This document shows, one piece after another, positions 4,272 through 33,137 of a DNA stretch of 64,000 nt. Location of the stretch: the NCBI RefSeq assembly GCF_056712565.1, contig NZ_CM160072.1, one strand, 5' to 3'. The notes under the pieces were generated by a model that worked only from the letters and a program-made list of their open reading frames with translations, searched no databases and was not told the origin of the DNA. Every line of letters starts with the position of its first letter. Positions within the stretch are counted from its first letter, which is position 1. Both the position numbers and the translations under genes were made by a program.

Positions 4272-5861
4272 TTAATGGCGGAAGTGGCGCATGTCGGTGA
4301 AGAGCATCGCAATACCGTGCTCGTCGGCGGCGGCAATCACTTCGTCATCACGGATGGAACCGCCAGGCTGGATTACACAGGTCACGCCCGCAGCGGCGGC
4401 GGCATCAATACCGTCGCGGAACGGGAAGAACGCGTCAGAAGCCATCGAGGAACCTTTCACTTCCAGACCTTCATCGGCGGCTTTAATACCGGCGATTTTC
4501 GCGGAGTACACGCGGCTCATCTGGCCCGCGCCAATACCGATGGTCATATTGTTTTTGGCATAGACGATAGCGTTGGATTTCACGAACTTCGCCACTTTCC
4601 AGCAGAACAGCGCATCACGCAATTCCTGTTCGGTCGGCTGGCGTTTGGTGACGACGCGCAGTTCTTCTGCACCGACCATCCCCAGATCGCGATCCTGAAC
4701 CAGCAGACCGCCGTTCACGCGTTTGAAATCAAGACCCGGAACACGCTCGCCCCACTGACCGCAGGTCAGAACGCGTACGTTTTGCTTGGCGGCGGTGATT
4801 TTCAGGGCTTCTTCGCTGGCGGACGGCGCAATAATCACTTCGACGAACTGACGAGAAATGATGGCCTGCGCGGTTTCAGCATCCAGTTCGCGGTTAAAGG
4901 CAATGATGCCGCCGAATGCGGAGGTTGGGTCGGTTTTGTACGCGCGATCGTAAGCATCAAGAATGGAATTGCCGATAGCCACGCCGCAAGGGTTGGCGTG
5001 TTTCACAATCACACATGCCGGCTCGGCGAACTCTTTCACGCACTCCAGCGCCGCATCGGTGTCGGCGATGTTGTTATAAGAGAGGGCTTTACCTTGAACC
5101 TGGGTTGCAGTAGCAACGGAGGCTTCTTTCACATTCTCTTCTATATAGAAGGCAGCCTGCTGGTGGCTGTTCTCGCCGTAACGCATATCCTGCTTCTTAA
5201 TGAAGTTCAGGTTCAGCGTGCGTGGGAAGCGACCGGCGGCTTCTTTGCTTTCACCGTGGTAAGCCGGAACCATGCTGCCGAAGTAGTTGGCAATCATGCT
5301 GTCGTAGGCGGCGGTGTGTTCGAAGGCTTTGATGGCAAGGTCAAAGCGAGTTTCCAGAGTCAGGGAGCCTTCATTGGCATCTATCTCTTTAATAATGGCG
5401 TCGTAGTCGCTGCTCTTCACCACGATTGCGACATCTTTATGGTTCTTGGCGGCAGAGCGCACCATCGTCGGGCCGCCGATATCGATGTTCTCAACCGCAT
5501 CTTCCAGCGAGCAGCCTTCACGAGCAACGGTCTGGGCGAACGGATACAGGTTAACAACCACCATATCGATAGGCTGGATCTGATGTTCTTCCATAATGGT
5601 ATCGTCCTGGCCGCGACGGCCCAGAATTCCACCATGTACTTTCGGATGCAGGGTCTTCACGCGTCCATCCATCATCTCCGGGAAACCGGTGTAATCGGAA
5701 ACTTCGGTTACCGGCAGACCTTTTTCTGCTAACAGACGGGCTGTGCCCCCTGTAGACAGCAGCTCCACACCGCGTGCGGAAAGTGCCTGGGCGAATTCGA
5801 CGATACCGGCTTTGTCAGAAACACTGAGCAGAGCGCGGCGGACTGGACGACGTTGTTGCAT
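4272..5861 (-). CDS. purH: bifunctional AICAR formyltransferase / IMP cyclohydrolase
   Basis: 529-aa ORF starting [19 protein letters not shown], immediately upstream of purD on the same strand. Confidence 0.93.
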
Positions 5862-23295: not shown

Positions 23296-23622
23296 TTGAA
23301 CATGATAAAAATTGATGAAATAGATTTTTTCGCTTTCGAAGGATGTTCAGAGTCCGAAGTTACTGAACTATTAGGAAAAAAACCAACAGGTTATAATGAT
23401 TGGATGATTAATATAAAAACAGGTGTGGAGTGGGTATTTTATGATGGTCGTTATTGGTTAGATTTTCGTAAATCCAAAGAGGGTATAAGGTGTATCTCAT
23501 GCAGTATTCTGTATCACGATAAAAGTAAAGGGCGTATCGATGTCTTATTTAGTGAAGGTATAGCTGACAGAGGTTTAAAAAATACGGGTGGAGTGTTAAT
23601 CCAAAAACGCCCGCAATTATAA
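23296..23622 (+). CDS. hypothetical protein (AT-rich accessory ORF 1, no recognised family)
   Basis: 108-aa ORF in markedly AT-rich DNA; no TM segment or signal peptide; weak RBS so start (23296 or 23302) is uncertain; not recognised by me. Confidence 0.45.
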   Translation: MNMIKIDEIDFFAFEGCSESEVTELLGKKPTGYNDWMINIKTGVEWVFYDGRYWLDFRKSKEGIRCISCSILYHDKSKGRIDVLFSEGIADRGLKNTGGVLIQKRPQL

Positions 23623-23664: not shown

Positions 23665-24114
23665 ATGCAACGTCAATATAAAAAATACATTCTTCTTTTT
23701 TGGGGTGTCATGGATGTTATCGCGATAGCCACATATCTGTTCTACTCGCTTGGTAATGGTCGTATCCCTTTTTATTCCGATATCGTTCATTCACTTTCTT
23801 TACTTAAGGATATCGGTGTTGAAGGCGGTTTTTACGCTTATGCAGTCGCCACTGTTACGCTACAAATAGTATTATTGCTCTCTTTATTCTTTTCTGCGCA
23901 ATGTTTTTTAAGACAAAAATTATTTAGTTTCTCTTTTTTGGCGATTCAGGAGTTTATGCGTTTTGCTACCGTAAGCTGTTCAATCTCCGTAATACCGTTG
24001 TTACTTAATTATTTTTATTCACAGGATCTGGTCTTAAATATTTCGTTGTTTATCTTCTCAGAGGTCACAAAAGTGACAACGATTATCTGGTGTAAACGAC
24101 AGGGGAAAGTGTGA
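23665..24114 (+). CDS. hypothetical small integral membrane protein (predicted 4 TM helices), AT-rich accessory ORF 2
   Basis: 149-aa ORF with four hydrophobic stretches; plausible SD AAGGA about 8 nt upstream of ATG; AT-rich codon usage. Confidence 0.55.
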   Translation: MQRQYKKYILLFWGVMDVIAIATYLFYSLGNGRIPFYSDIVHSLSLLKDIGVEGGFYAYAVATVTLQIVLLLSLFFSAQCFLRQKLFSFSFLAIQEFMRFATVSCSISVIPLLLNYFYSQDLVLNISLFIFSEVTKVTTIIWCKRQGKV

Positions 24115-24284: not shown

Positions 24285-25916
24285 GTGCTAACTTTGCTTC
24301 ACCTGCTTTCTGCCGTCGCCCTGCTGGTCTGGGGGACTCATATTGTTCGAACAGGCGTAATGCGCGTCTTCGGCGCGCGTCTGCGTACTGTCCTTAGCCG
24401 GAGCGTCGAAAAAAAGCCGCTCGCCTTTTGCGCGGGGATCGGCGTTACCGCACTGGTGCAGAGCAGTAATGCCACCACCATGCTGGTGACCTCGTTCGTC
24501 GCTCAGGATCTGGTTGCTCTCGCGCCTGCGCTGGTGATTGTGCTGGGTGCAGATGTCGGGACGGCGCTGATGGCGCGTATTCTCACCTTCGATTTATCCT
24601 GGCTGTCACCGTTACTTATTTTTATCGGCGTGATTTTTTTCCTCGGACGCAAACAGTCACGCGCCGGGCAACTGGGCCGCGTCGGTATTGGTCTTGGGCT
24701 GATTTTACTGGCGCTGGAGTTGATTGTGCAGGCCGTAACGCCGATCACTCAGGCAAACGGCGTTCAGGTGATCTTTGCCTCGCTGACTGGCGACATTTTG
24801 CTGGATGCGCTGATTGGTGCGATGTTCGCCATTATCAGCTACTCCAGCCTTGCCGCGGTACTGCTGACCGCGACTCTGACCGCCGCAGGCATTATCTCTT
24901 TCCCAGTGGCGCTTTGTCTGGTGATTGGTGCAAACCTCGGTTCCGGCCTGCTGGCGATGCTCAACAACAGTGCCGCCAATGCCGCAGCCCGCCGTGTCGC
25001 GCTGGGTAGCCTGCTGTTTAAGCTGGTGGGTAGCCTGATTATCCTGCCGTTTGTTCATTTGCTGGCAGAGACAATGGGGAAGTTGCCATTGCCAAAAGCG
25101 GAATTGGTGATCTATTTCCACGTCTTCTACAACCTTGTACGCTGCCTGGTCATGTTGCCATTCGTTGACCCGATGGCACGGTTTTGCAAAACGATTATTC
25201 GCGATGAACCGGAACTGGATACCCAGCTACGGCCTAAACATCTGGATGTCAGCGCGCTGGATACGCCCACGCTTGCTCTGGCGAACGCTGCCCGCGAAAC
25301 CCTGCGCATTGGCGACGCCATGGAACAGATGATGGAAGGGCTGAATAAAGTGATGCACGGCGAGCCACGGCAGGAGAAAGAGCTGCGTAAGCTGGCTGAT
25401 GACATCAACGTTCTCTATACCGCCATTAAGCTGTATCTGGCGCGGATGCCAAAAGAGGAACTGGCAGAAGAAGAGTCGCGCCGCTGGGCGGAGATCATCG
25501 AAATGTCGCTCAACCTTGAACAGGCCTCCGATATCGTCGAGCGCATGGGGAGTGAAATTGCCGACAAATCGCTGGCTGCAAGGCGAGCATTTTCGCTTGA
25601 TGGCTTGAAGGAACTGGATGCGCTCTATGAGCAATTGCTCAGTAATTTAAAACTGGCAATGTCGGTTTTCTTCTCTGGCGATGTTACCAGCGCCCGTCGT
25701 TTGCGCCGCAGCAAACATCGTTTTCGCATTCTTAATCGCCGCTATTCCCACGCCCACGTCGATCGCCTGCATCAGCAAAACGTGCAGAGTATTGAAACCA
25801 GTTCGCTACATTTAGGCTTACTGGGAGATATGCAGCGTCTGAACTCGCTGTTTTGTTCGGTGGCTTACAGTGTGCTGGAACAGCCGGATGAAGATGAAGG
25901 ACGGGACGAGTATTAA
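24285..25916 (+). CDS. yjbB: Na+/phosphate cotransporter family (PNaS) protein YjbB
   Basis: 543-aa ORF with GTG start, multiple TM helices and C-terminal PhoU-like region; K-12 synteny. Confidence 0.85.
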   Translation: MLTLLHLLSAVALLVWGTHIVRTGVMRVFGARLRTVLSRSVEKKPLAFCAGIGVTALVQSSNATTMLVTSFVAQDLVALAPALVIVLGADVGTALMARILTFDLSWLSPLLIFIGVIFFLGRKQSRAGQLGRVGIGLGLILLALELIVQAVTPITQANGVQVIFASLTGDILLDALIGAMFAIISYSSLAAVLLTATLTAAGIISFPVALCLVIGANLGSGLLAMLNNSAANAAARRVALGSLLFKLVGSLIILPFVHLLAETMGKLPLPKAELVIYFHVFYNLVRCLVMLPFVDPMARFCKTIIRDEPELDTQLRPKHLDVSALDTPTLALANAARETLRIGDAMEQMMEGLNKVMHGEPRQEKELRKLADDINVLYTAIKLYLARMPKEELAEEESRRWAEIIEMSLNLEQASDIVERMGSEIADKSLAARRAFSLDGLKELDALYEQLLSNLKLAMSVFFSGDVTSARRLRRSKHRFRILNRRYSHAHVDRLHQQNVQSIETSSLHLGLLGDMQRLNSLFCSVAYSVLEQPDEDEGRDEY

Positions 25917-25924
25917 TACCGTGA

Positions 25925-26000
25925 CCCTGAAGGCCTGATAAGACGCGTAAAGCGTCGCATCAGGCACTATGAACAAGATGCCGGATCATGCATCCGGCAA
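25925..26000. repeat. REP (repetitive extragenic palindromic) element(s)
   Basis: GCCTGATAAGACGCG...CGCATCAGGC and GCCGGATCATGCATCCGGCA palindromes between yjbB and pepE. Confidence 0.75.
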
Positions 26001-26005
26001 TTCAC

Positions 26006-26695
26006 TTAAAAACGGTGACCCGCTTCCAGCGGCACCGCTTCTTCACCAGCCTTAAACACATAAGTGGTGTTCGGGCCACCCAGCGTAGCGTGACCTTTAC
26101 TTACTGTGATCCAGTTACCTTCCGGCAGACCAATAATCGTCAGTTCTGGCGCGACGACCAGCAGTTCGCGAATACGCTGCTCACGGGTTTCACCTTTATG
26201 GCCTTCCGGCAGCGCGTTGGTGAAGTGCGGGTTGATTTGTAGCGGGAACAGATTTAGCGCATCGAAACCTTGCGGATCGACAATCGGCATATCGTTGGTG
26301 GTACGAATGGTTGGGCAAGCAAGGTTAGCGCCTGCGCTCCAGCCAATATACAGCGCGCCACGTTTCACCACGTCAGTAATGGGTGCCAGCAGCCCGCGCT
26401 CGCGGCACTGTTTCAGCAACTGGAAAGTATTACCGCCGCCGACAATCACAATTTCCGCATTTTCAATCGCGGCAACGGGATCGACAACGCTATGAATACC
26501 GGTGACAGAAACACCCAGCGGAGCGAGAACCGCAGCCGTTTTCGCTGTGTAATCATCCCAGGTCTGCGTTACGCCAGCGAAAGGAATAAATACCGCAGAA
26601 CGGCGCCCCTGCAACTGTTCAGCAATCAGCGGCAGCGCGTGTTCCAGCCAGGCTTTACCCGGCAGCGTCGAGTTACTCAATAAAAGCAGTTCCAT
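26006..26695 (-). CDS. pepE: dipeptidase E (alpha-aspartyl dipeptidase)
   Basis: 229-aa ORF starting [19 protein letters not shown]; K-12 synteny. Confidence 0.92.
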
Positions 26696-26817
26696 TACTT
26701 CTCCGGTTAGTAAGAAAACACGGAAGGAATGCTACCACTGCGAATTTAACCACTTACTGACATGGCTCACGATGTCACATATTGCACAGGCGCTGAGACT
26801 GATGACAAACACAGGAT

Positions 26818-26920
26818 TGCCTGATGCGCTACGCTTACCTGGCCTACCAGATAACTGCAATATATTGAATTTTCGAGATTATGTAGGCCGAATAAGGCTT
26901 CATTCCGCATCCGGCATAAA
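26818..26920. repeat. REP/BIME-like palindromic elements
   Basis: CTGATGCGCTACGCTTACCTGGCCTAC and GTAGGCCGAATAAGGC...CGCATCCGGCA units. Confidence 0.7.
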
Positions 26921-27076
26921 CAATGTGCACTTTGCCACCAATTTGAGCGCCCCTTAAGGCGCTGATGTTTTTTTATCCTTCTCGTGTACATTGTGCCACT
27001 TCTGCAATCAGCCGCACATCAGGTCGCGAAGTTGCCGCGGCGACCAGCCAGCGACATGCAGAGTTAAGTAGCGCGA

Positions 27077-28306
27077 TTAATCATGGGAAATTGCCTCTGC
27101 ATGGGCGAGCAGGTATTGCTCCGCCTCACCGGACCAGATCCCCTGATGACGCGCCAGAATTGCCGCCAGTGCTTGATCCTGAATCTGCGTGAGTGACGTC
27201 AGCGGCAGGTATTTCCCGGTATACACCAGCTTTTTGCCGCCGCCGACGGCAGGCAATTCAAGCGTGGTTTCGCCCGCGGCATTCAGCCCAAGAATATGTG
27301 TTACCACTTTTGCGGCCTGCACTTTTTTCTCTTCAATCAATTTGACCGCTGCGCGCATGTCGTCGGTATTGCCGCCTGATGTGCCCACGTAGTGGGTAAA
27401 TGCATAATGCACATCGTAGAAATTAATTGGCGCGCTGAAGTGCTTATCCTGCGGTCCGGCGAAGAAATTCAGACAACCATCTGTCGCCAGCAAGGAAGAG
27501 GCGAGAGTCACCAGTCCTTCATTAGGCACAAAGACGAAAATATCATCGAAGCCGTGACCGCCACTCAGTGCCATTAACGTATCAAATGCTGCATCGGCGG
27601 CATTGAGATAATGAATCAGTGTTTGCGGTTCTGATGGATAGTGCTTGCGTGCATAACTCAATTTGTCGTTGTCGGTATCGGTAATGACGAGCAGCGAAGG
27701 GTTAACGGGTCCATGTAGCGCATAATCAATCGCCAACAGTCCCATTGGTCCGGTGCCGCCGAGGATCAGCGTGCGCCCTTGCGGGCGAATCCCCATCGTG
27801 TGGTTATAACTACCTTCCTGAAGATGATAGTTGGCGTTGAACGCGCCAATCACGCAGGAAAGCGGTTCAACCAGCGAGCCTTCAAAATAGGTTTCGCCGT
27901 CGTATGCCAGCAGGCAATCTTGTTCCATGACCTCGTTGGGAATAACCACATGCGTCGCTTCGCCGCCTACCCACGGGAAGGAGTAGCCGGGGCAATCCGG
28001 GCGGTCGGGGAGTTGCAGGTTGGCCTGAATCACATAACGCTGACCCGGCTGGAATTTGTGCTGCCACTTTTTACCCACGGCCAGAATATCGCCGCAAAAT
28101 TCGTGGCCGATGATGATGGGATTGGTCGCCACATCGTCGGGTACTTTTTTATGGTTTTCACCCAGATTGGCCTCTTTCCAGGAAGAGAGGCACAGGCTGT
28201 CAGTGACCACCGTCGCGAGGATTTCATCCTCCTGCATTTCAGGAAGGTCAAAGGTTTCCAGACGCAGGTCACGTTTGCCATAAAGACGCAGAGCTGTTGT
28301 TTTCAT
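27077..28306 (-). CDS. sorE: L-sorbose-1-phosphate reductase (Zn-dependent dehydrogenase family)
   Basis: About 409-aa product (MKTTALRLYG...) of ORF 27077-28318; last gene of a sorCDFBAME-ordered cluster. Confidence 0.8.
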   Translation of the reverse strand: MKTTALRLYGKRDLRLETFDLPEMQEDEILATVVTDSLCLSSWKEANLGENHKKVPDDVATNPIIIGHEFCGDILAVGKKWQHKFQPGQRYVIQANLQLPDRPDCPGYSFPWVGGEATHVVIPNEVMEQDCLLAYDGETYFEGSLVEPLSCVIGAFNANYHLQEGSYNHTMGIRPQGRTLILGGTGPMGLLAIDYALHGPVNPSLLVITDTDNDKLSYARKHYPSEPQTLIHYLNAADAAFDTLMALSGGHGFDDIFVFVPNEGLVTLASSLLATDGCLNFFAGPQDKHFSAPINFYDVHYAFTHYVGTSGGNTDDMRAAVKLIEEKKVQAAKVVTHILGLNAAGETTLELPAVGGGKKLVYTGKYLPLTSLTQIQDQALAAILARHQGIWSGEAEQYLLAHAEAISHD

Positions 28307-28357
28307 AAACCACCTCATGTTGAGCGATGACCCCGGCAGTCGTGCCGGGGCGAAGAA

Positions 28358-29182
28358 TCAGGACAGGAAGCCCAGCGCATTACCGATAATCCCTAAACCA
28401 AACAGGGCGAAAATCAGCCATACCGGGTTAATTTTTTTGTTGAGCAGACGAACCATCAGCAGCGTCAGACCGAGCGCCAGCAAACCAGGGCAAAGTTGGT
28501 CGAGGATGTTCTGCACGGTTATGGTGACGGTGGCACCATCGGCGGCAGGCGTTTGTGAAACCACCAACGGTACGTTGATTGACGTCCATTTGGTCACCAG
28601 CACGCCCATCACAAACAGCCCGAGAATCGACGCGCCTTCGGTGAGTTTTTGCAGCAAATTACCGCCCATATCGCTGACGATATTCACCCCTTTGCGAAAG
28701 CCGAGCTGTAGGCCATACCACTTCATCGCCAGACGCACCGCGTTGAAAATAAAGAAGAACAGTAGGGGGCCGAGAATGTTGCCCGAAAGTGCCAGAGATG
28801 CGCCGAGCGCGGCGGTAATCGGGCGCAGCGTTCCCCAGACCAGTGGATCTCCAACTCCTGCCAATGGTCCCATCAGACCGACTTTGATGCCGTTAATGGT
28901 ACCGTCATCAATTTCCGCGCCGTTGGCTCGCGCCTCTTCCATGGCGGCAGTGACGCCGATGACCGGGCCACATACGGCTGGCGTGGTATTGAAGAACACC
29001 AGGTGTCGCCTGAGCGCCGCAACCTGATCCTCTTTTAATGGGTAAAGTCGTTTGATGGCGGGGATCATGTCGTAGCAAAAACCCAGCCCGTGAATACGTT
29101 CAAAGTTAAAGGATGCCTGTTGCAGGTTGGAGCGCAGAAACATGCTCACCAGATCGCTGCGTGTAATTTTTCTCTGTTCCAT
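28358..29182 (-). CDS. sorM: PTS sorbose-specific EIID component
   Basis: Mannose/sorbose-family IID protein; start at MEQRKITRSDL (alternative upstream ATG at 29212 overlaps sorA). Confidence 0.8.
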   Translation of the reverse strand: MEQRKITRSDLVSMFLRSNLQQASFNFERIHGLGFCYDMIPAIKRLYPLKEDQVAALRRHLVFFNTTPAVCGPVIGVTAAMEEARANGAEIDDGTINGIKVGLMGPLAGVGDPLVWGTLRPITAALGASLALSGNILGPLLFFFIFNAVRLAMKWYGLQLGFRKGVNIVSDMGGNLLQKLTEGASILGLFVMGVLVTKWTSINVPLVVSQTPAADGATVTITVQNILDQLCPGLLALGLTLLMVRLLNKKINPVWLIFALFGLGIIGNALGFLS

Positions 29183-29192
29183 GATGGCTCCG

Positions 29193-29990
29193 TTAATCAT
29201 CAAGTTGGTCAAGGGCGGTGATAGTGGTGGTCTGGGGATGTGGTTCAGCTTTACGCCACTGTGGATTTAACTGGATGTAGAGCAGGGCCATGATCACGCC
29301 GACGCCACCGAACGCCAGCAGACTGAGATCGAGGTAGCCACCTGCGAGGAAACCGAGGAAAAAGAAAGGCATCAAATATTTCACGCCCATCATGCGAAGC
29401 ACCATGGCGTAACCGACCACCACGATAAAACCGCCAGCAATCTGCAGTCCACGGGTCACAAATTCGGGAATGGCGCTCAGCATATTGCTCACCATATCAG
29501 CGCTGACGAACAGCGAGACAATCAGTGCCGGAATAGCAACGCGCAGTGCCTGCACGCCAAGCGCGGAGACATGCAGAATATCGAGAGTGCGAAACCGTGC
29601 TTCTTCCGCTGCTTTATCCGCCGCGTGCTGGAACACTACGGTGATGGTACGGGCAAACACCGTCAGCACCTGGCCTGCCGCAGCCACAGGCAACGCGATG
29701 GCGATTCCGGTGGCGATGCTTTGCTGACCAACGATAACCAGAATGGCGGAGATTATGCTGGCGAGTGCAGAATCCGGAGATTGCGCCGCGCCGACGTTCA
29801 TCCAGCCGAGAGCTATCAATTCCAGCGTACCACCGAGCATAATTCCGGTTTTTAAATCACCGAGAATTAAACCAATCACCGTACAGGCAATTAACGGACG
29901 ATGAGTCTGAAATTCATCCAGCACGCTGCCCATTCCGGCAATACAGGAAAAAAGAAATATAGCAATGATTTGTAGGGTACTTATTTCCAT
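29193..29990 (-). CDS. sorA: PTS sorbose-specific EIIC component
   Basis: 265-aa polytopic membrane protein of mannose/sorbose IIC type. Confidence 0.82.
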   Translation of the reverse strand: MEISTLQIIAIFLFSCIAGMGSVLDEFQTHRPLIACTVIGLILGDLKTGIMLGGTLELIALGWMNVGAAQSPDSALASIISAILVIVGQQSIATGIAIALPVAAAGQVLTVFARTITVVFQHAADKAAEEARFRTLDILHVSALGVQALRVAIPALIVSLFVSADMVSNMLSAIPEFVTRGLQIAGGFIVVVGYAMVLRMMGVKYLMPFFFLGFLAGGYLDLSLLAFGGVGVIMALLYIQLNPQWRKAEPHPQTTTITALDQLDD

Positions 29991-30055
29991 GATTTGTCAC
30001 CTTTTAAGTGTCGTCATCCCTGCCTGTTAAAGCATATGTACACAGGCGCTATTAT

Positions 30056-30550
30056 TTAATTTGCGATTAACTGTTCGTTTATTTTGTCGATAATATTGAT
30101 TGAGGGATCTGACGCTACGACGCGTAAATCCAGTATGACGCCAAGATTATTTAACTCATGAAATGCGTTAATATCATCGTCATCTAATGAAACTGCTTTG
30201 GTTAACTGTTTCTTACCAGGACGCCAGGCCATACCGCCAATATTCAGGGTACCTATTTTTACCCCCTGGCGAACCATTGCTAAGGCATCCTGTGGGCGAG
30301 TGAAAAGATAAAAAACGGTTTCGTCCTGATATTGCGGGTTGTGATAAACCGCGACGGCTTTTTCAATATTGACCACGTTAACCTTCATTCCCGGTGGCGC
30401 AGCCTGACGCAATAATGTCCGGCGAACTTCATCGTTATAAACTTCGTCATTGCAGATAATAATGCGTTGGGCGTTAGCCACTTTAGACCAGACGGTAGTG
30501 ACCTGGCCGTGGATCAGGCGGTCATCAATGCGGGCGAGCGTAATGTTCAT
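30056..30550 (-). CDS. sorB: PTS sorbose-specific EIIB component
   Basis: 164-aa ORF with mannose-family IIB N-terminus MNITLARIDDRLIHGQV (phospho-His). Confidence 0.85.
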   Translation of the reverse strand: MNITLARIDDRLIHGQVTTVWSKVANAQRIIICNDEVYNDEVRRTLLRQAAPPGMKVNVVNIEKAVAVYHNPQYQDETVFYLFTRPQDALAMVRQGVKIGTLNIGGMAWRPGKKQLTKAVSLDDDDINAFHELNNLGVILDLRVVASDPSINIIDKINEQLIAN

Positions 30551-30957
30551 CAGAAATCCTCCTCTGCTGTTGCTACCTGTCTCCAGACGACGCAGGTTTG
30601 CTTTGCGATTTGCGTCAGGTGTTCACACAGTTCATCAACATTCATGCTGTCCTGGTTATCAACCAGTTCGAGCGCCAGCGGCAGAGAAAGGCCGCTGATT
30701 ACCCGCAGACGAGGATTGCGCATCGCAAGCATCGCTGCCGCATTCCACGGGCTGCCGCACTGTAAATCCACGGCGATTAGCCACTCGTCATGATTGTGAA
30801 TGCTCACTAACTTCTCCAGCTTTGCCACAATGTCTCCGGCGTTCTCGCCGGGCACAAATTCAACTGCCTCGACCCTGGCATCGCCGTACACCATCTGAAC
30901 CGATTCCAGCATGGCGCAGGCTAATTTGCCGTGGGCGCAAAAAATGGCATTGACCAT
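30550..30957 (-). CDS. sorF: PTS sorbose-specific EIIA component
   Basis: 135-aa ORF with mannose-family IIA N-terminus (CAHGKLA, phospho-His); stop/start overlap with sorB. Confidence 0.82.
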   Translation of the reverse strand: MVNAIFCAHGKLACAMLESVQMVYGDARVEAVEFVPGENAGDIVAKLEKLVSIHNHDEWLIAVDLQCGSPWNAAAMLAMRNPRLRVISGLSLPLALELVDNQDSMNVDELCEHLTQIAKQTCVVWRQVATAEEDF

Positions 30958-30966
30958 AAAGCCTCC

Positions 30967-31773
30967 TTAGCCGCGCGTTTTGCCGCCTGCAATGTTAGTG
31001 GTTACTCCGGTGATATAGCTGGCGCGTTCAGACAGCAGATAACAAACAAAATCAGCCACTTCTGCTAATCTTCCGGCGCGCCCAATAGGAATGGCGTTTT
31101 TGGTATAGCCTTCACGCAGCTGCTCGACGGTGATATTGCGCGTCCACGCCAGCGCTTCTTCATATTCCGGCGTGCGCAGTCCTGTTTTTTCCAGAATCCC
31201 CGGCGCGATACCGACCACACGGATACCGTGCTTGCCCAGCTCTTTCGACCAGGAGCGCGTGAAGCTATTGAGCGCGGCTTTGGTCGCGGCGTAACAGCTT
31301 TGGCCTTCTGAGCCTTCCAGCCCACTTTCTGAGGAAACATTCACAATCACGCCATCATGTTGTTTGACCATCTGTCGCGCCACCGCCTGCGACATCAGAA
31401 AAACGCCTTTCTGGTTGATATTGACCATTTTTTCGAATGCAGCTTCGTTGAGTTCATACTGCCCGGCAGGCGCTTTCTCATCGACCAGCAGACGCGGGAA
31501 ATTGACCCCGGCGTTGTTAACCAGACCGTCGATGCGACCAAAACGCTGGATAATTTCTGCTACCGTATGATTTATCTCTTTGGCGCTGGAAATATCGGTC
31601 GGCCAGAACTGATAACCTTTATGGCTTTCATATTGACCATCGCCACCGTGAATATCGACCATCTGTACATTCGCGCCTTGTGCTAATAATTCCTCTACAA
31701 TCGCCAGACCAATACCGGATGCGCCACCGGTGACAATAATGATTTTATCCTGCAAATTTAACCACGTTTGCAT
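30967..31773 (-). CDS. sorD: sorbitol(glucitol)-6-phosphate 2-dehydrogenase (SDR family)
   Basis: 268-aa short-chain dehydrogenase (TGGASGIG Rossmann motif; YAATKAA catalytic region). Confidence 0.82.
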   Translation of the reverse strand: MQTWLNLQDKIIIVTGGASGIGLAIVEELLAQGANVQMVDIHGGDGQYESHKGYQFWPTDISSAKEINHTVAEIIQRFGRIDGLVNNAGVNFPRLLVDEKAPAGQYELNEAAFEKMVNINQKGVFLMSQAVARQMVKQHDGVIVNVSSESGLEGSEGQSCYAATKAALNSFTRSWSKELGKHGIRVVGIAPGILEKTGLRTPEYEEALAWTRNITVEQLREGYTKNAIPIGRAGRLAEVADFVCYLLSERASYITGVTTNIAGGKTRG

Positions 31774-31842
31774 AACAGACTCCTGATTTTAGATAGTAGG
31801 GACCCGCCGTAATTTTTATTACGGTAAACATCGGGAAGATTT

Positions 31843-32790
31843 TTATTTCAGTAATAGTTCAGCTGTGCTGCTATTCGTTACCAGACAATTAATATATTTT
31901 CCACGCAGTGCACCAACAATTCCGCTGTATTTTTCTTCGCTCATGGCAATGCCAATGGAATACCGTGCCTGCTTTAATTTATTCATTTCGATAGAGAGTG
32001 TTTTTTCGCTCATATTCGTTTCAACCATTGCGCCGTGAATATCAAAAAAGCGCGAGCAAATATCGCCAGCAACCTGGCGGGCATTCAGGTCGTCACTCTC
32101 TTCACCACCATAAAACGCATGCCAGTTAGCGCCGTCGCGAATGGCCGGTGAGCCAATTCCCACCAGGGCGACATCCAGATTATCCCAGTAGGCAGAGATG
32201 GTTTTAAAGTGCTGAGACTGCATGATCCCATTACGAATTAATGGGTTATCCAGCAGCGCCGGAAAATCCGCGAGATGCGATTCCCCTTTCAGCTTCGCTG
32301 CCGCGCTGTAGGTTAATGTGTTTACGTGATAGCGGCTTTCGAGTTTACCGGACGGGCCGCCAATAATCGGCACGCAAATTAACTGCCGCGATTGCCCCGC
32401 CTGCGGCAAGTTTTCAACCAGTGCGCTCACCGCGCGGCCCCAGGAAAAACCGACAATATCGCCAGGTTCCAGCAAGCGATCCAGCAGTTGCGCGCCGTGT
32501 AACCCCATCATCGCCAGTTGAATATCTTCATCCTCATCATTTCCTGACACCACCACAACGTCTTTCAGGCCAAACTTTTGCTTCACTTGCTGCTCCAGCC
32601 AGAGATTTTCGTTGTAGTCATAGTTGATGGCGATGGTGACAATTCCCTGATCGCGGCCTCGTTTAAGCAAGCGGCTGATGGTAGTGCGATAAATACCCAG
32701 TTCGCGCGCAATTTGCGCCTGCGTCATATCCTGTTCGTAATAGAGTTGGGCAATCTTCACAATCAAACGGATATCGTCACTGTTTTCCAT
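31843..32790 (-). CDS. sorC: sorbose operon transcriptional regulator, SorC family
   Basis: 315-aa product from MENSDDIRLIVKIAQLYYEQDMTQAQIARELG (HTH) with AGGAGG 5 nt upstream; C-terminal sugar-phosphate binding domain. Confidence 0.8.
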   Translation of the reverse strand: MENSDDIRLIVKIAQLYYEQDMTQAQIARELGIYRTTISRLLKRGRDQGIVTIAINYDYNENLWLEQQVKQKFGLKDVVVVSGNDEDEDIQLAMMGLHGAQLLDRLLEPGDIVGFSWGRAVSALVENLPQAGQSRQLICVPIIGGPSGKLESRYHVNTLTYSAAAKLKGESHLADFPALLDNPLIRNGIMQSQHFKTISAYWDNLDVALVGIGSPAIRDGANWHAFYGGEESDDLNARQVAGDICSRFFDIHGAMVETNMSEKTLSIEMNKLKQARYSIGIAMSEEKYSGIVGALRGKYINCLVTNSSTAELLLK

Positions 32791-33137
32791 TGCCGCCTCC
32801 TGGTTCTGCACATTTGTGCAAATACGCTTTCTCACCGCTTGATCTGATATAACCCCATCATGATGGCCTTTCAAAGCGATTTTTCACTCTTTGCATGGGG
32901 GGAAATAGCGCTTTCTCTTGCACATTTGTTTCTCTGCGTAGTAGTCATCAGCACAGGTGTGCAGCGATGCGTAATTTGTTGATTATTCTTATTTTGCCAG
33001 GCAAATTTGCATCGTACTTCCGGAGACACTTTTGTGATAAAAGGCGTGGCAGATCACATTTAATTTCGACGTTGCCGCATAACCCTGTTTTTCCCCGCTA
33101 AGAGGTACGGTATATTCCGCGTTTTACAGGAGAATTT

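What the first reader, a model, noticed from the sequence alone, without database searches (positions are those of the whole stretch)
26940..26976. Plus-strand terminator-like hairpin with no upstream plus-strand gene at the pepE/sor junction
AGCGCC-CCTTAA-GGCGCT followed by a run of seven T lies between pepE (minus) and sorE (minus), oriented as an intrinsic terminator for plus-strand transcription, yet no plus-strand gene precedes it. It may be a relic of the sor insertion junction, a terminator for antisense transcription reading into pepE, or the 3' end of an unannotated small RNA. Adjacent REP elements are present.
Basis: seen in the sequence. Interest (0 to 1): 0.25.

Follow-up and report, generated by a model that had tools for sequence, protein, structure and literature searches.

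The report
Leftover end-hairpin of sorbose operon
The "orphan plus-strand terminator" is the conserved hairpin that ends the sorbose operon on the other strand; it looks orphaned because the operon's last gene (sdhL) was deleted, and its T-run is the complement of that dead gene's stop codon and spacer.

Summary
The hairpin AGCGCC-CCTTAA-GGCGCT (26946-26963), GATG, then T7 (26968-26974) is real, single-copy per genome and not a REP.

It belongs to the sor segment, which is absent from K-12. In 22 of 23 other Enterobacteriaceae species examined, a homologous GC hairpin lies 4-13 nt after the stop codon of sdhL. This shikimate-dehydrogenase-like gene overlaps the end of sorE by 8 nt.

In this window, and in about 2,680 of 5,426 complete E. 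coli genomes, sdhL is reduced to a 112-nt scar (26973-27084, minus strand) by one shared ~700-bp deletion. The T7 run is the complement of the scar's stop codon TAA plus an A-rich spacer (ancestral TAAGAAAC became TAAAAAAAC).

The hairpin is therefore the inherited 3'-terminal stem-loop of the sorCDFBAME-sdhL operon. In Klebsiella, Citrobacter and Pseudocitrobacter it is shared with a convergent ccdAB module, which Escherichia lacks.

By sequence criteria it is a weak terminator in both directions here. No plus-strand promoter, ORF or Rfam family supports an sRNA.

Verdict: an ordinary relic. The modest by-product is that sdhL is an ancestral member of the sor operon, not an ST648-specific insertion.

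The parts
26946..26963 (.). Palindromic GC hairpin. On the plus strand it reads AGCGCC-CCTTAA-GGCGCT. On the minus strand it reads AGCGCCU-UAAG-GGGCGCU, 7 pairs. It is homologous to the stem-loop that follows sdhL in other Enterobacteriaceae.
   Evidence: Homologs are shown. Pair conservation is 90.2% against 23-54% in slid controls. It was invariant in 8 sampled E. coli genomes.
26968..26974 (+). T7 run, which is A7 on the minus strand. It is the complement of the relic sdhL stop codon TAA (26973-26975) plus the A-rich spacer. It is separated from the stem by GATG.
   Evidence: The ancestral sequence TAAGAAACATC is seen in L003, L042, L006 and L084; the window has TAAAAAAACATC. A7 was found in 6 of 8 sampled E. 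coli and A6T in the other 2.
26973..27084 (-). Scar of sdhL, a shikimate-dehydrogenase-like gene of the HI0607 family. It keeps the first 58 nt (27084-27027; the start ATG overlaps the end of sorE by 8 nt) and the last 54 nt (27026-26973). About 700 bp in between is deleted. In this strain there is also a nonsense codon at codon 7.
   Evidence: BLAST split of the region. Alignment to the intact genes. The intact gene matches NCBIfam NF009202 at 462 bits, Pfam Shikimate_dh_N and PDB 1NPY at E = 6e-113. All 8 sampled E. coli have the same junction CTTCG|CGACC.
27077..28306 (-). sorE (L-sorbose 1-phosphate reductase), the last intact gene of the sor operon in this genome.
   Evidence: Annotation of the 100% identical strain SF-468 and the ORF list.
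26818..26918 (.). BIME: two inverted REP units (26818-26847 plus, 26885-26918 minus) with an AT-rich linker, about 27 nt from the hairpin on the pepE side.
   Evidence: Inverted repeats I1 and I2. Alignment to a canonical REP of the window. Weak Rfam naRNA4 hit, a REP-derived family.
26920..26994 (.). Outer 11-nt inverted repeat (26920-26930 with 26984-26994) that encloses the hairpin and the T-run. One arm lies in the last codons of the sdhL scar.
   Evidence: It is conserved in Escherichia, but only through one-sided transitions, and it is confounded by coding sequence.
26785..26786 (.). Breakpoint between sequence shared with sor-negative K-12 and the sor-specific segment (26786-33102). The hairpin lies 160 nt inside the sor segment.
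26006..26695 (-). pepE, co-directional with the sor operon and downstream of it.

Best explanation
The hairpin is the inherited 3'-terminal stem-loop of the sorbose operon and belongs to minus-strand transcription.

Ancestrally the operon was sorCDFBAME-sdhL. sdhL started 8 nt inside the end of sorE and ended 4-13 nt before a GC hairpin (GAGCGCC-loop-GGCGCTC). In several genera that hairpin carries a T-rich tail in the sor direction. In others it abuts the stop codon of a convergent ccdB, so it serves as a shared terminator between convergent units.

In the E. coli lineage of this window, one ~700-bp deletion removed the body of sdhL. A 112-nt scar, the hairpin and a BIME were left between sorE and pepE. 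The seven T on the plus strand are the complement of the scar's stop codon TAA and its A-rich spacer. That is why the site looks like a plus-strand terminator with no gene.

Shown: the homology, the deletion, the origin of the T-run and the conservation of the stem.

Inferred: in this genome the hairpin, helped by the neighbouring BIME, still marks and stabilises the 3' end of the sorbose-induced transcript and limits read-through into pepE. It is only a weak intrinsic terminator in either direction.
For: 1. Split homology. The first 53 nt after sorE and the 330 nt from the scar to pepE match other Escherichia and Pseudocitrobacter loci on either side of a 700-bp segment that is absent here. 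That segment is an intact 270-aa gene.
2. The gene is SdhL: NF009202 at 462 bits and PDB 1NPY HI0607 at E = 6e-113. In E. coli genomes that keep it, it is annotated with an 8-nt overlap with sorE.
3. sdhL follows sorE in about 29 of 35 Enterobacterales species loci. A perfect stem follows its stop codon in 22 of 23 species checked. 90.2% of cells are paired, and three pairs show changes on both sides, including GAGCACC/GGTGCTC in L007.
4. Conserved sequence stops at the 3' arm of the hairpin. Beyond it lie ccdAB, a Gp49/HTH toxin-antitoxin pair, a BIME or other DNA.
5. In a terminator score, homologs are positive or near zero in the sor direction (L045 +17.5, L011 +5.9, L019 -4.6). Controls score +22 to +70.
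6. The alignment shows the T-run corresponds to the stop codon plus spacer. An E. coli with intact sdhL and an identical hairpin has TAAGAAAC.
7. sdhL is co-induced with sor genes by L-sorbose in an ST648 strain: log2 fold change 6.0 for RNA and 6.8 for protein, against 5.7 for sorA RNA (PMC12817954). Sor-strand transcription therefore reaches this point.
8. The 80-nt region is single-copy in every genome that has it.
Against: - In this window the sor-direction tail (CAAAUUGGUGG) is not U-rich and the score is -41. Efficient intrinsic termination of sor transcripts is therefore not predicted, and the functional half of the explanation rests on inference about hairpins and BIMEs.
- About 176 E. 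coli genomes of the L083 type have lost the 3' arm and the BIME altogether. The hairpin is therefore dispensable.
- The stem is a DNA palindrome, so conservation cannot assign a strand. Counting G-U against A-C substitutions gave 13 to 8, which is not decisive.
- The terminator formula was recalled from memory and used modern energy parameters. It was validated only by five positive controls.
Confidence: 0.78

Rival explanations
1. It is a working plus-strand, or bidirectional, intrinsic terminator. It stops transcription that comes from the pepE/BIME side, such as read-through antisense to pepE or divergent transcription from the pepE promoter region, before it runs antisense into sorE. Alternatively it is the surviving terminator of a convergent gene such as ccdBA that Escherichia has lost.
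For: - A T7 run follows a hairpin of -10 kcal/mol.
- The run lengthened from the ancestral TTTCTTA to T7 and is A7 or A6 in all 8 sampled genomes.
- The plus-strand fold of 26905-27010 has z = -4.2.
- In Klebsiella, Citrobacter and Pseudocitrobacter the same hairpin abuts the stop codon of a convergent ccdB.
- In C. amalonaticus the opposite-direction score is +26.
Against: - Four non-U bases separate the stem from the T-run, and the score is -30 against +22 to +70 for controls.
- No promoter-like site was found on either strand in 25500-28500.
- There is no plus-strand gene.
- No ccdA or ccdB remnant is detectable in the window or in other Escherichia (best E = 12).
- The T-run is fully explained as a stop codon plus spacer that has drifted since the gene died.
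Confidence: 0.15
2. It is a functionless fossil. After sdhL was lost, the hairpin persists only because too little time has passed for it to decay. The 3' end of sor mRNA is set elsewhere, by the BIME, by Rho, or by read-through into pepE.
For: - Scores are weak in both directions.
- Hairpins are degraded in E. whittamii, in the E. coli-named species representative L006 and in E. albertii, and the hairpin is truncated in L083-type E. coli.
- The scar around it is polymorphic.
Against: - The 18-nt hairpin was invariant in 8 sampled genomes, while about 20 of the ~170 flanking columns vary. This is only suggestive, with P about 0.1.
- The stem is conserved across genera.
Confidence: 0.3
3. It is the 3' end of an unannotated plus-strand small RNA or small protein gene located in the pepE-sorE spacer.
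For: The terminator-like shape. An ATG ORF of 61 aa (26772-26957) ends in the hairpin loop.
Against: - The ORF runs through both REP units.
- The only Rfam hits are E > 4 hits to REP-type families.
- There is no promoter-like site.
- The upstream 160 nt is a BIME, which is mobile repetitive DNA.
- No literature report was found.
Confidence: 0.04
4. It is part of a REP/BIME element, or it is the attachment or junction scar of the sor island.
For: It lies 27 nt from a BIME. In L083-type E. coli a breakpoint falls inside the hairpin loop.
Against: - It has one copy per genome and does not resemble the REP consensus.
- The sor/K-12 breakpoint is 160 nt away.
- The hairpin is present in genera with no BIME next to it.
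Confidence: 0.02

Closest known systems
Rho-independent (intrinsic) terminator at the end of a catabolic operon, including bidirectional terminators shared by convergent genes
   Same: A GC-rich stem-loop lies a few nucleotides after the stop codon of the operon's last gene. It is conserved across genera. In some species it has T-rich tails in the sor direction, and in others it is shared with a convergent ccdB.
   Different: In this window the last gene is deleted, the sor-direction tail is not U-rich, and the opposite-direction U-run is offset by 4 nt. It fails the sequence criteria for an efficient terminator in both directions.
REP/BIME elements (E. coli repetitive extragenic palindromes)
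   Same: It is an extragenic palindrome at an operon end, next to a true BIME. BIMEs are known to stabilise upstream mRNA and attenuate transcription (general knowledge, not tested here).
   Different: It is single-copy, has a different sequence, is shorter (18 nt) and is conserved with the sor cluster rather than dispersed.
SdhL (HI0607, PDB 1NPY), shikimate-dehydrogenase-like protein family
   Same: The gene whose scar supplies the T-run matches this family over its full length in relatives (E = 6e-113; NF009202).
   Different: Only 112 nt remain here. The family's physiological substrate is unknown. Its linkage to sorE is an observation made here and in PMC12817954, where it was read as an ST648-specific insertion.

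Membership tests
   6 pairs, 5 of them GC, -9.7 to -10.9 kcal/mol.
   GAUG precedes U7. The tail score nT is 1.9 against 4.0-5.5 in controls, and the overall score is -30.
   No gene, no promoter-like site. Upstream is a BIME.
   EHEC Sakai Term-seq exists (PMC7547250; the GEO accession is given there) but could not be read here.
Intrinsic terminator, minus strand (end of the sor operon) | Stem-loop just downstream of the last gene's stop codon, same strand | tested here: met
   It lies 4-13 nt after the sdhL stop in 22 of 23 species. In the window it lies 9 nt after the scar's stop codon.
Intrinsic terminator, minus strand (end of the sor operon) | U-tract after the stem | tested here: not met
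   The window tail is CAAAUUGGUGG, score -41. The feature is met or nearly met in L045, L011, L010, L012, L018 and L019.
Intrinsic terminator, minus strand (end of the sor operon) | Structure conserved among homologs | tested here: met
   90.2% of cells paired, 3 pairs with changes on both sides, slid controls 23-54%.
REP/BIME | Many dispersed copies per genome with the REP consensus | tested here: not met
   One place per genome in 2,865 genomes. The consensus search does not hit the hairpin.
Known small RNA families (Rfam 15) | Match to a covariance model | tested here: not met
   Only E = 4-8 hits to REP-related or unrelated families, far below gathering scores.

The most novel reading that the evidence does not exclude
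After sdhL was lost, the spacer drifted or was selected from TAAGAAAC to TAAAAAAAC. This turned the stranded operon-end hairpin into a functional bidirectional insulator. Its plus-strand face stops transcription from the pepE/BIME side from running antisense into sorE. Alternatively it ends a short unannotated RNA.
Probability: 0.1. Interest if true: 0.3.

Novelty: new member of a known kind. Interest (0 to 1): 0.17.

Why it matters
For the finding itself the importance is small. It removes a false lead (an orphan terminator or sRNA) and shows how a palindromic stem next to a dead gene's stop codon can mimic a terminator on the wrong strand.

The by-product is more useful in three ways.
- About half of all complete E. 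coli genomes carry an unannotated 112-nt sdhL scar. The sdhL of ST648 was recently described as a lineage-specific insertion (PMC12817954). It is instead the ancestral eighth gene of the enterobacterial sor operon, lost once by a 700-bp deletion.
- The conserved, overlapping sorE-sdhL linkage gives a concrete context in which to test the still-unknown substrate of the SdhL family.
- Natural alleles exist with the hairpin and BIME, with a truncated hairpin, and with intact sdhL. Together they form a ready-made experiment on insulation between the sor operon and pepE.

Tried and rejected
- Rfam scan of 26600-27200 at E up to 10: only chance-level hits.
- REP membership: rejected, because the region is single-copy and the sequence is different.
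- Junction-scar idea: the K-12 breakpoint is 160 nt away. The 86 bp unique to K-12 has no similarity to any part of the sor segment, so I could not decide whether sor-negative alleles arose by deletion or by replacement.
- Search for ccdA/ccdB remnants upstream of the hairpin in the window and in other Escherichia: none, best E = 12. This leaves the 'lost convergent gene' idea unsupported for Escherichia. A ccdA fragment does survive in Pseudocitrobacter faecalis (E = 1e-7).
- Assigning a strand from G-U against A-C substitutions in the stems: 13 to 8 cells, not independent, inconclusive.
- Outer 11-bp inverted repeat as a larger conserved structure: it has no double-sided changes and one arm is coding, so it is not interpretable.
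- Literature: no paper on a pepE-sorE RNA. The mSystems supplement held as text has no pepE values. The EHEC Term-seq tables are not held.
- The terminator score uses the d'Aubenton-Carafa form recalled from memory with ViennaRNA energies. Treat it as relative to the five controls only.

Full report
**Observation.** The sequence is as described. AGCGCC (26946-26951), CCTTAA and GGCGCT (26958-26963) are followed by GATG and then seven T (26968-26974).
- The scan tool lists it as a plus-strand terminator-like site. Such sites are common in this 3-kb region, with 10 found against 3.9 expected.
- The hairpin alone folds at about -10 to -11 kcal/mol on either strand, because the stem is a DNA palindrome.
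- The full composite pattern is expected 0.01 times per window.
- The strain is identical over this stretch to E. coli SF-468. There the neighbours are annotated pepE (window 26006-26695, minus) and sorE (27077-28306, minus), with the rest of the sor cluster and then rluF beyond.
- No credible plus-strand gene or promoter-like site precedes the hairpin.
- A pair of inverted REP units (a BIME) lies at 26818-26918.

**Ancestral or island-borne?** A 471-nt query across the spacer matched 5,424 of 5,426 complete E. coli genomes. Only 2,680 covered it fully. The rest, including K-12, share only the 136 nt next to pepE. Reading both alleles shows that window 26786-33102 (the sor segment) takes the place of 86 bp in K-12. 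The hairpin lies 160 nt inside the sor segment, so it is not at the junction. The 80 nt around it occur exactly once per genome in 2,865 genomes, so it is not a repeat-family member.

**The key result.** I fetched loci encoding SorE relatives from one genome per species and compared the DNA downstream of sorE.
- In E. whittamii, another Escherichia species, an E. coli-named species representative, E. albertii and Pseudocitrobacter, the first 53 nt after sorE match the window. About 700 bp with no counterpart follows, and then the rest of the window's spacer matches.
- The extra DNA is an intact 270-aa gene whose ATG lies 8 nt inside the end of sorE.
- It is a shikimate-dehydrogenase-like protein of the SdhL/HI0607 family: Pfam Shikimate_dh_N, NCBIfam NF009202 at 462 bits, and PDB 1NPY at E = 6e-113.
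- The window therefore carries a 112-nt scar of this gene on the minus strand (26973-27084). The deletion junction is at 27026/27027, and there is an added nonsense codon at codon 7.
- The scar's stop codon is the complement of 26973-26975. The ancestral text after the gene is TAA-GAAACATC-hairpin, and here it is TAA-AAAAACATC-hairpin.
- The 'run of seven T' is therefore two bases of a dead gene's stop codon plus five bases of its spacer, read on the wrong strand.

**Conservation of the hairpin.**
- sdhL follows sorE in about 29 of 35 Enterobacterales species loci, and has decayed independently in Mangrovibacter and Cedecea.
- In 22 of 23 species examined, a perfect GC stem (typically GAGCGCC ... 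GGCGCTC, 5-9 pairs) starts 4-13 nt after the sdhL stop. Loops differ between genera: TTAAC or TTAAG against AGGGAG or AGGGATG.
- On an alignment of 24 sequences, 90.2% of cells pair, against 23-54% when partners are slid. Three pairs change on both sides, including GAGCACC/GGTGCTC in one genome.
- Sequence similarity between genera stops at the 3' arm.
- Beyond it lies one of the following: a convergent ccdB whose stop codon abuts the stem (Klebsiella, several Citrobacter, P. vendiensis; Pfam CcdB and CcdA); a Gp49/HTH toxin-antitoxin pair; a BIME (Escherichia, P. faecalis); or unrelated T-rich DNA.
- The hairpin is therefore the terminal element of the sor-sdhL module, and in many relatives it is a terminator shared by convergent units.

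**How good a terminator is it?** I used a d'Aubenton-Carafa-type score. The formula was recalled from memory and the energies came from ViennaRNA, so only comparisons with controls are meaningful.

| Sequence | Direction | Score |
|---|---|---|
| Five classical terminators (controls) | own direction | +22 to +70 |
| Homolog L045 | sor direction | +17.5 |
| Homolog L011 | sor direction | +5.9 |
| Homologs L019, L010, L018, L012 | sor direction | -5 to -9 |
| Homolog L012 | opposite direction | +26 |
| Window | plus strand | -30 |
| Window | sor strand | -41 |

The window's plus-strand score is penalised by the GATG spacer, and its sor-strand tail is CAAAUUGG. The element is therefore a decayed version of a real terminator, and neither orientation is predicted to be efficient here.

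**Population picture in E. coli.**
- All eight sampled scar-type genomes, including O157:H7 and B2 strains, share the same junction CTTCG|CGACC, so the deletion happened once.
- The 18-nt hairpin is invariant in these genomes while the scar around it is polymorphic. The A-run is A7 in six and A6T in two.
- 177 genomes keep intact sdhL.
- One of these (L084) has the identical hairpin preceded by TAAGAAAC, plus the BIME.
- The other ~176 (L083 type) have lost the 3' arm of the hairpin and the BIME. Their breakpoint lies in the loop, and only 122 bp separates sdhL from pepE.

**Experimental anchor.** A 2025 study reports that sdhL in an ST648 strain is induced by L-sorbose: log2 fold change 6.0 for RNA and 6.8 for protein, similar to the sor genes. 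It describes the gene as an ST648-specific insertion that is absent from ST131 (PMC12817954). This shows that sor-strand transcription runs to the position just before the hairpin. My comparison reverses the direction of the inference: ST648 retains the ancestral gene, and other sor-positive E. coli carry its scar.

**Mechanism, with steps marked.**
- Shown: the hairpin is homologous to the operon-end stem-loop of sor-sdhL, the T-run derives from the stop codon and spacer, and there was a single deletion.
- Inferred: in this genome the hairpin and the adjacent BIME mark and stabilise the 3' end of sorbose-induced mRNA and limit read-through into the co-directional pepE. This rests on general knowledge that 3' hairpins and BIMEs protect mRNA and attenuate transcription. 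It was not tested here.
- Not excluded: some plus-strand termination (rival, about 0.15). The ancestral arrangement was bidirectional in sister genera, and the A/T run has lengthened. However, no ccdAB remnant is detectable in Escherichia, and no plus-strand promoter, gene or RNA family is found.
- Strand could not be assigned from substitutions.

**Verdict.** This is an ordinary relic of a known kind of element, mis-oriented by eye. Interest is low. The useful by-products are the sdhL scar, the ancestral eight-gene sor operon, and a set of natural alleles for testing insulation between the sor operon and pepE.

Noticed in passing
window 26973-27084 (minus); L083 1501-2313; L003 5226-6038: About 2,680 complete E. 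coli genomes carry an unannotated 112-nt scar of sdhL, and 177 keep the gene intact. A 2025 paper (PMC12817954) calls sdhL an ST648-specific insertion. Comparison across Enterobacterales shows it is the ancestral eighth gene of the sor operon, overlapping sorE by 8 nt, and that it was lost once in E. coli.
   Followed up: yes
L003 5226-6038 and homologs in L004-L045: The SdhL family (HI0607) has no established physiological substrate. Its conserved overlap with sorE, its co-induction by sorbose, and a more distant match to a 5-ketofructose reductase structure (PDB 7COK, E = 2e-16) suggest a role in ketohexose or sorbose metabolism.
   Followed up: partly
L014 6064-6674; L008, L005, L009, L013, L075 downstream of the hairpin: The slot between the sor-end hairpin and pepE is a hot spot for toxin-antitoxin modules in sister genera. 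ccdAB is found there intact, truncated, or as a fragment, and so is a Gp49/HTH pair. Escherichia has a BIME there instead.
   Followed up: partly
L083 2313-2436 (E. coli M160133 type, about 176 genomes): In sdhL-intact E. coli of this type, the hairpin is cut in its loop (AGCGCCTT|GTTTGCC) and the BIME is missing. sdhL is therefore only 122 bp from pepE. The adjoining sequence CCAGAAGCAATG is shared with K-12 but not with the window.
   Followed up: partly
window 26920-26930 and 26984-26994: An 11-nt inverted repeat encloses the hairpin and T-run. The plus-strand fold of 26905-27010 has z = -4.2. It is conserved in Escherichia, but one arm is the last codons of sdhL.
   Followed up: partly
window 23302-23622 and 23665-24114 (plus), between metH and yjbB: Two hypothetical ORFs (106 and 149 aa) have no Pfam or PADLOC match. 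They are present in only 1,132 of 5,426 E. coli genomes, so they form an accessory two-gene insert of unknown function.
   Followed up: partly
L001 (SF-468 annotation) between pepE and sorE: The locus-tag series skips AN206_RS24235 exactly at the pepE-sorE spacer. This suggests a feature was once called there and later withdrawn.
   Followed up: no
L002 2637-2722 (K-12 pepE-rluF spacer): The 86 bp specific to sor-negative strains has no detectable similarity to any part of the 6.3-kb sor segment. The two alleles differ by replacement, not by a simple insertion or deletion.
   Followed up: partly
L022 (Mangrovibacter) 5217-5516; L027 (Cedecea colo) 5190-5386: sdhL has decayed to fragments independently in at least two other genera. 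Its loss after sorE is therefore recurrent.
   Followed up: no
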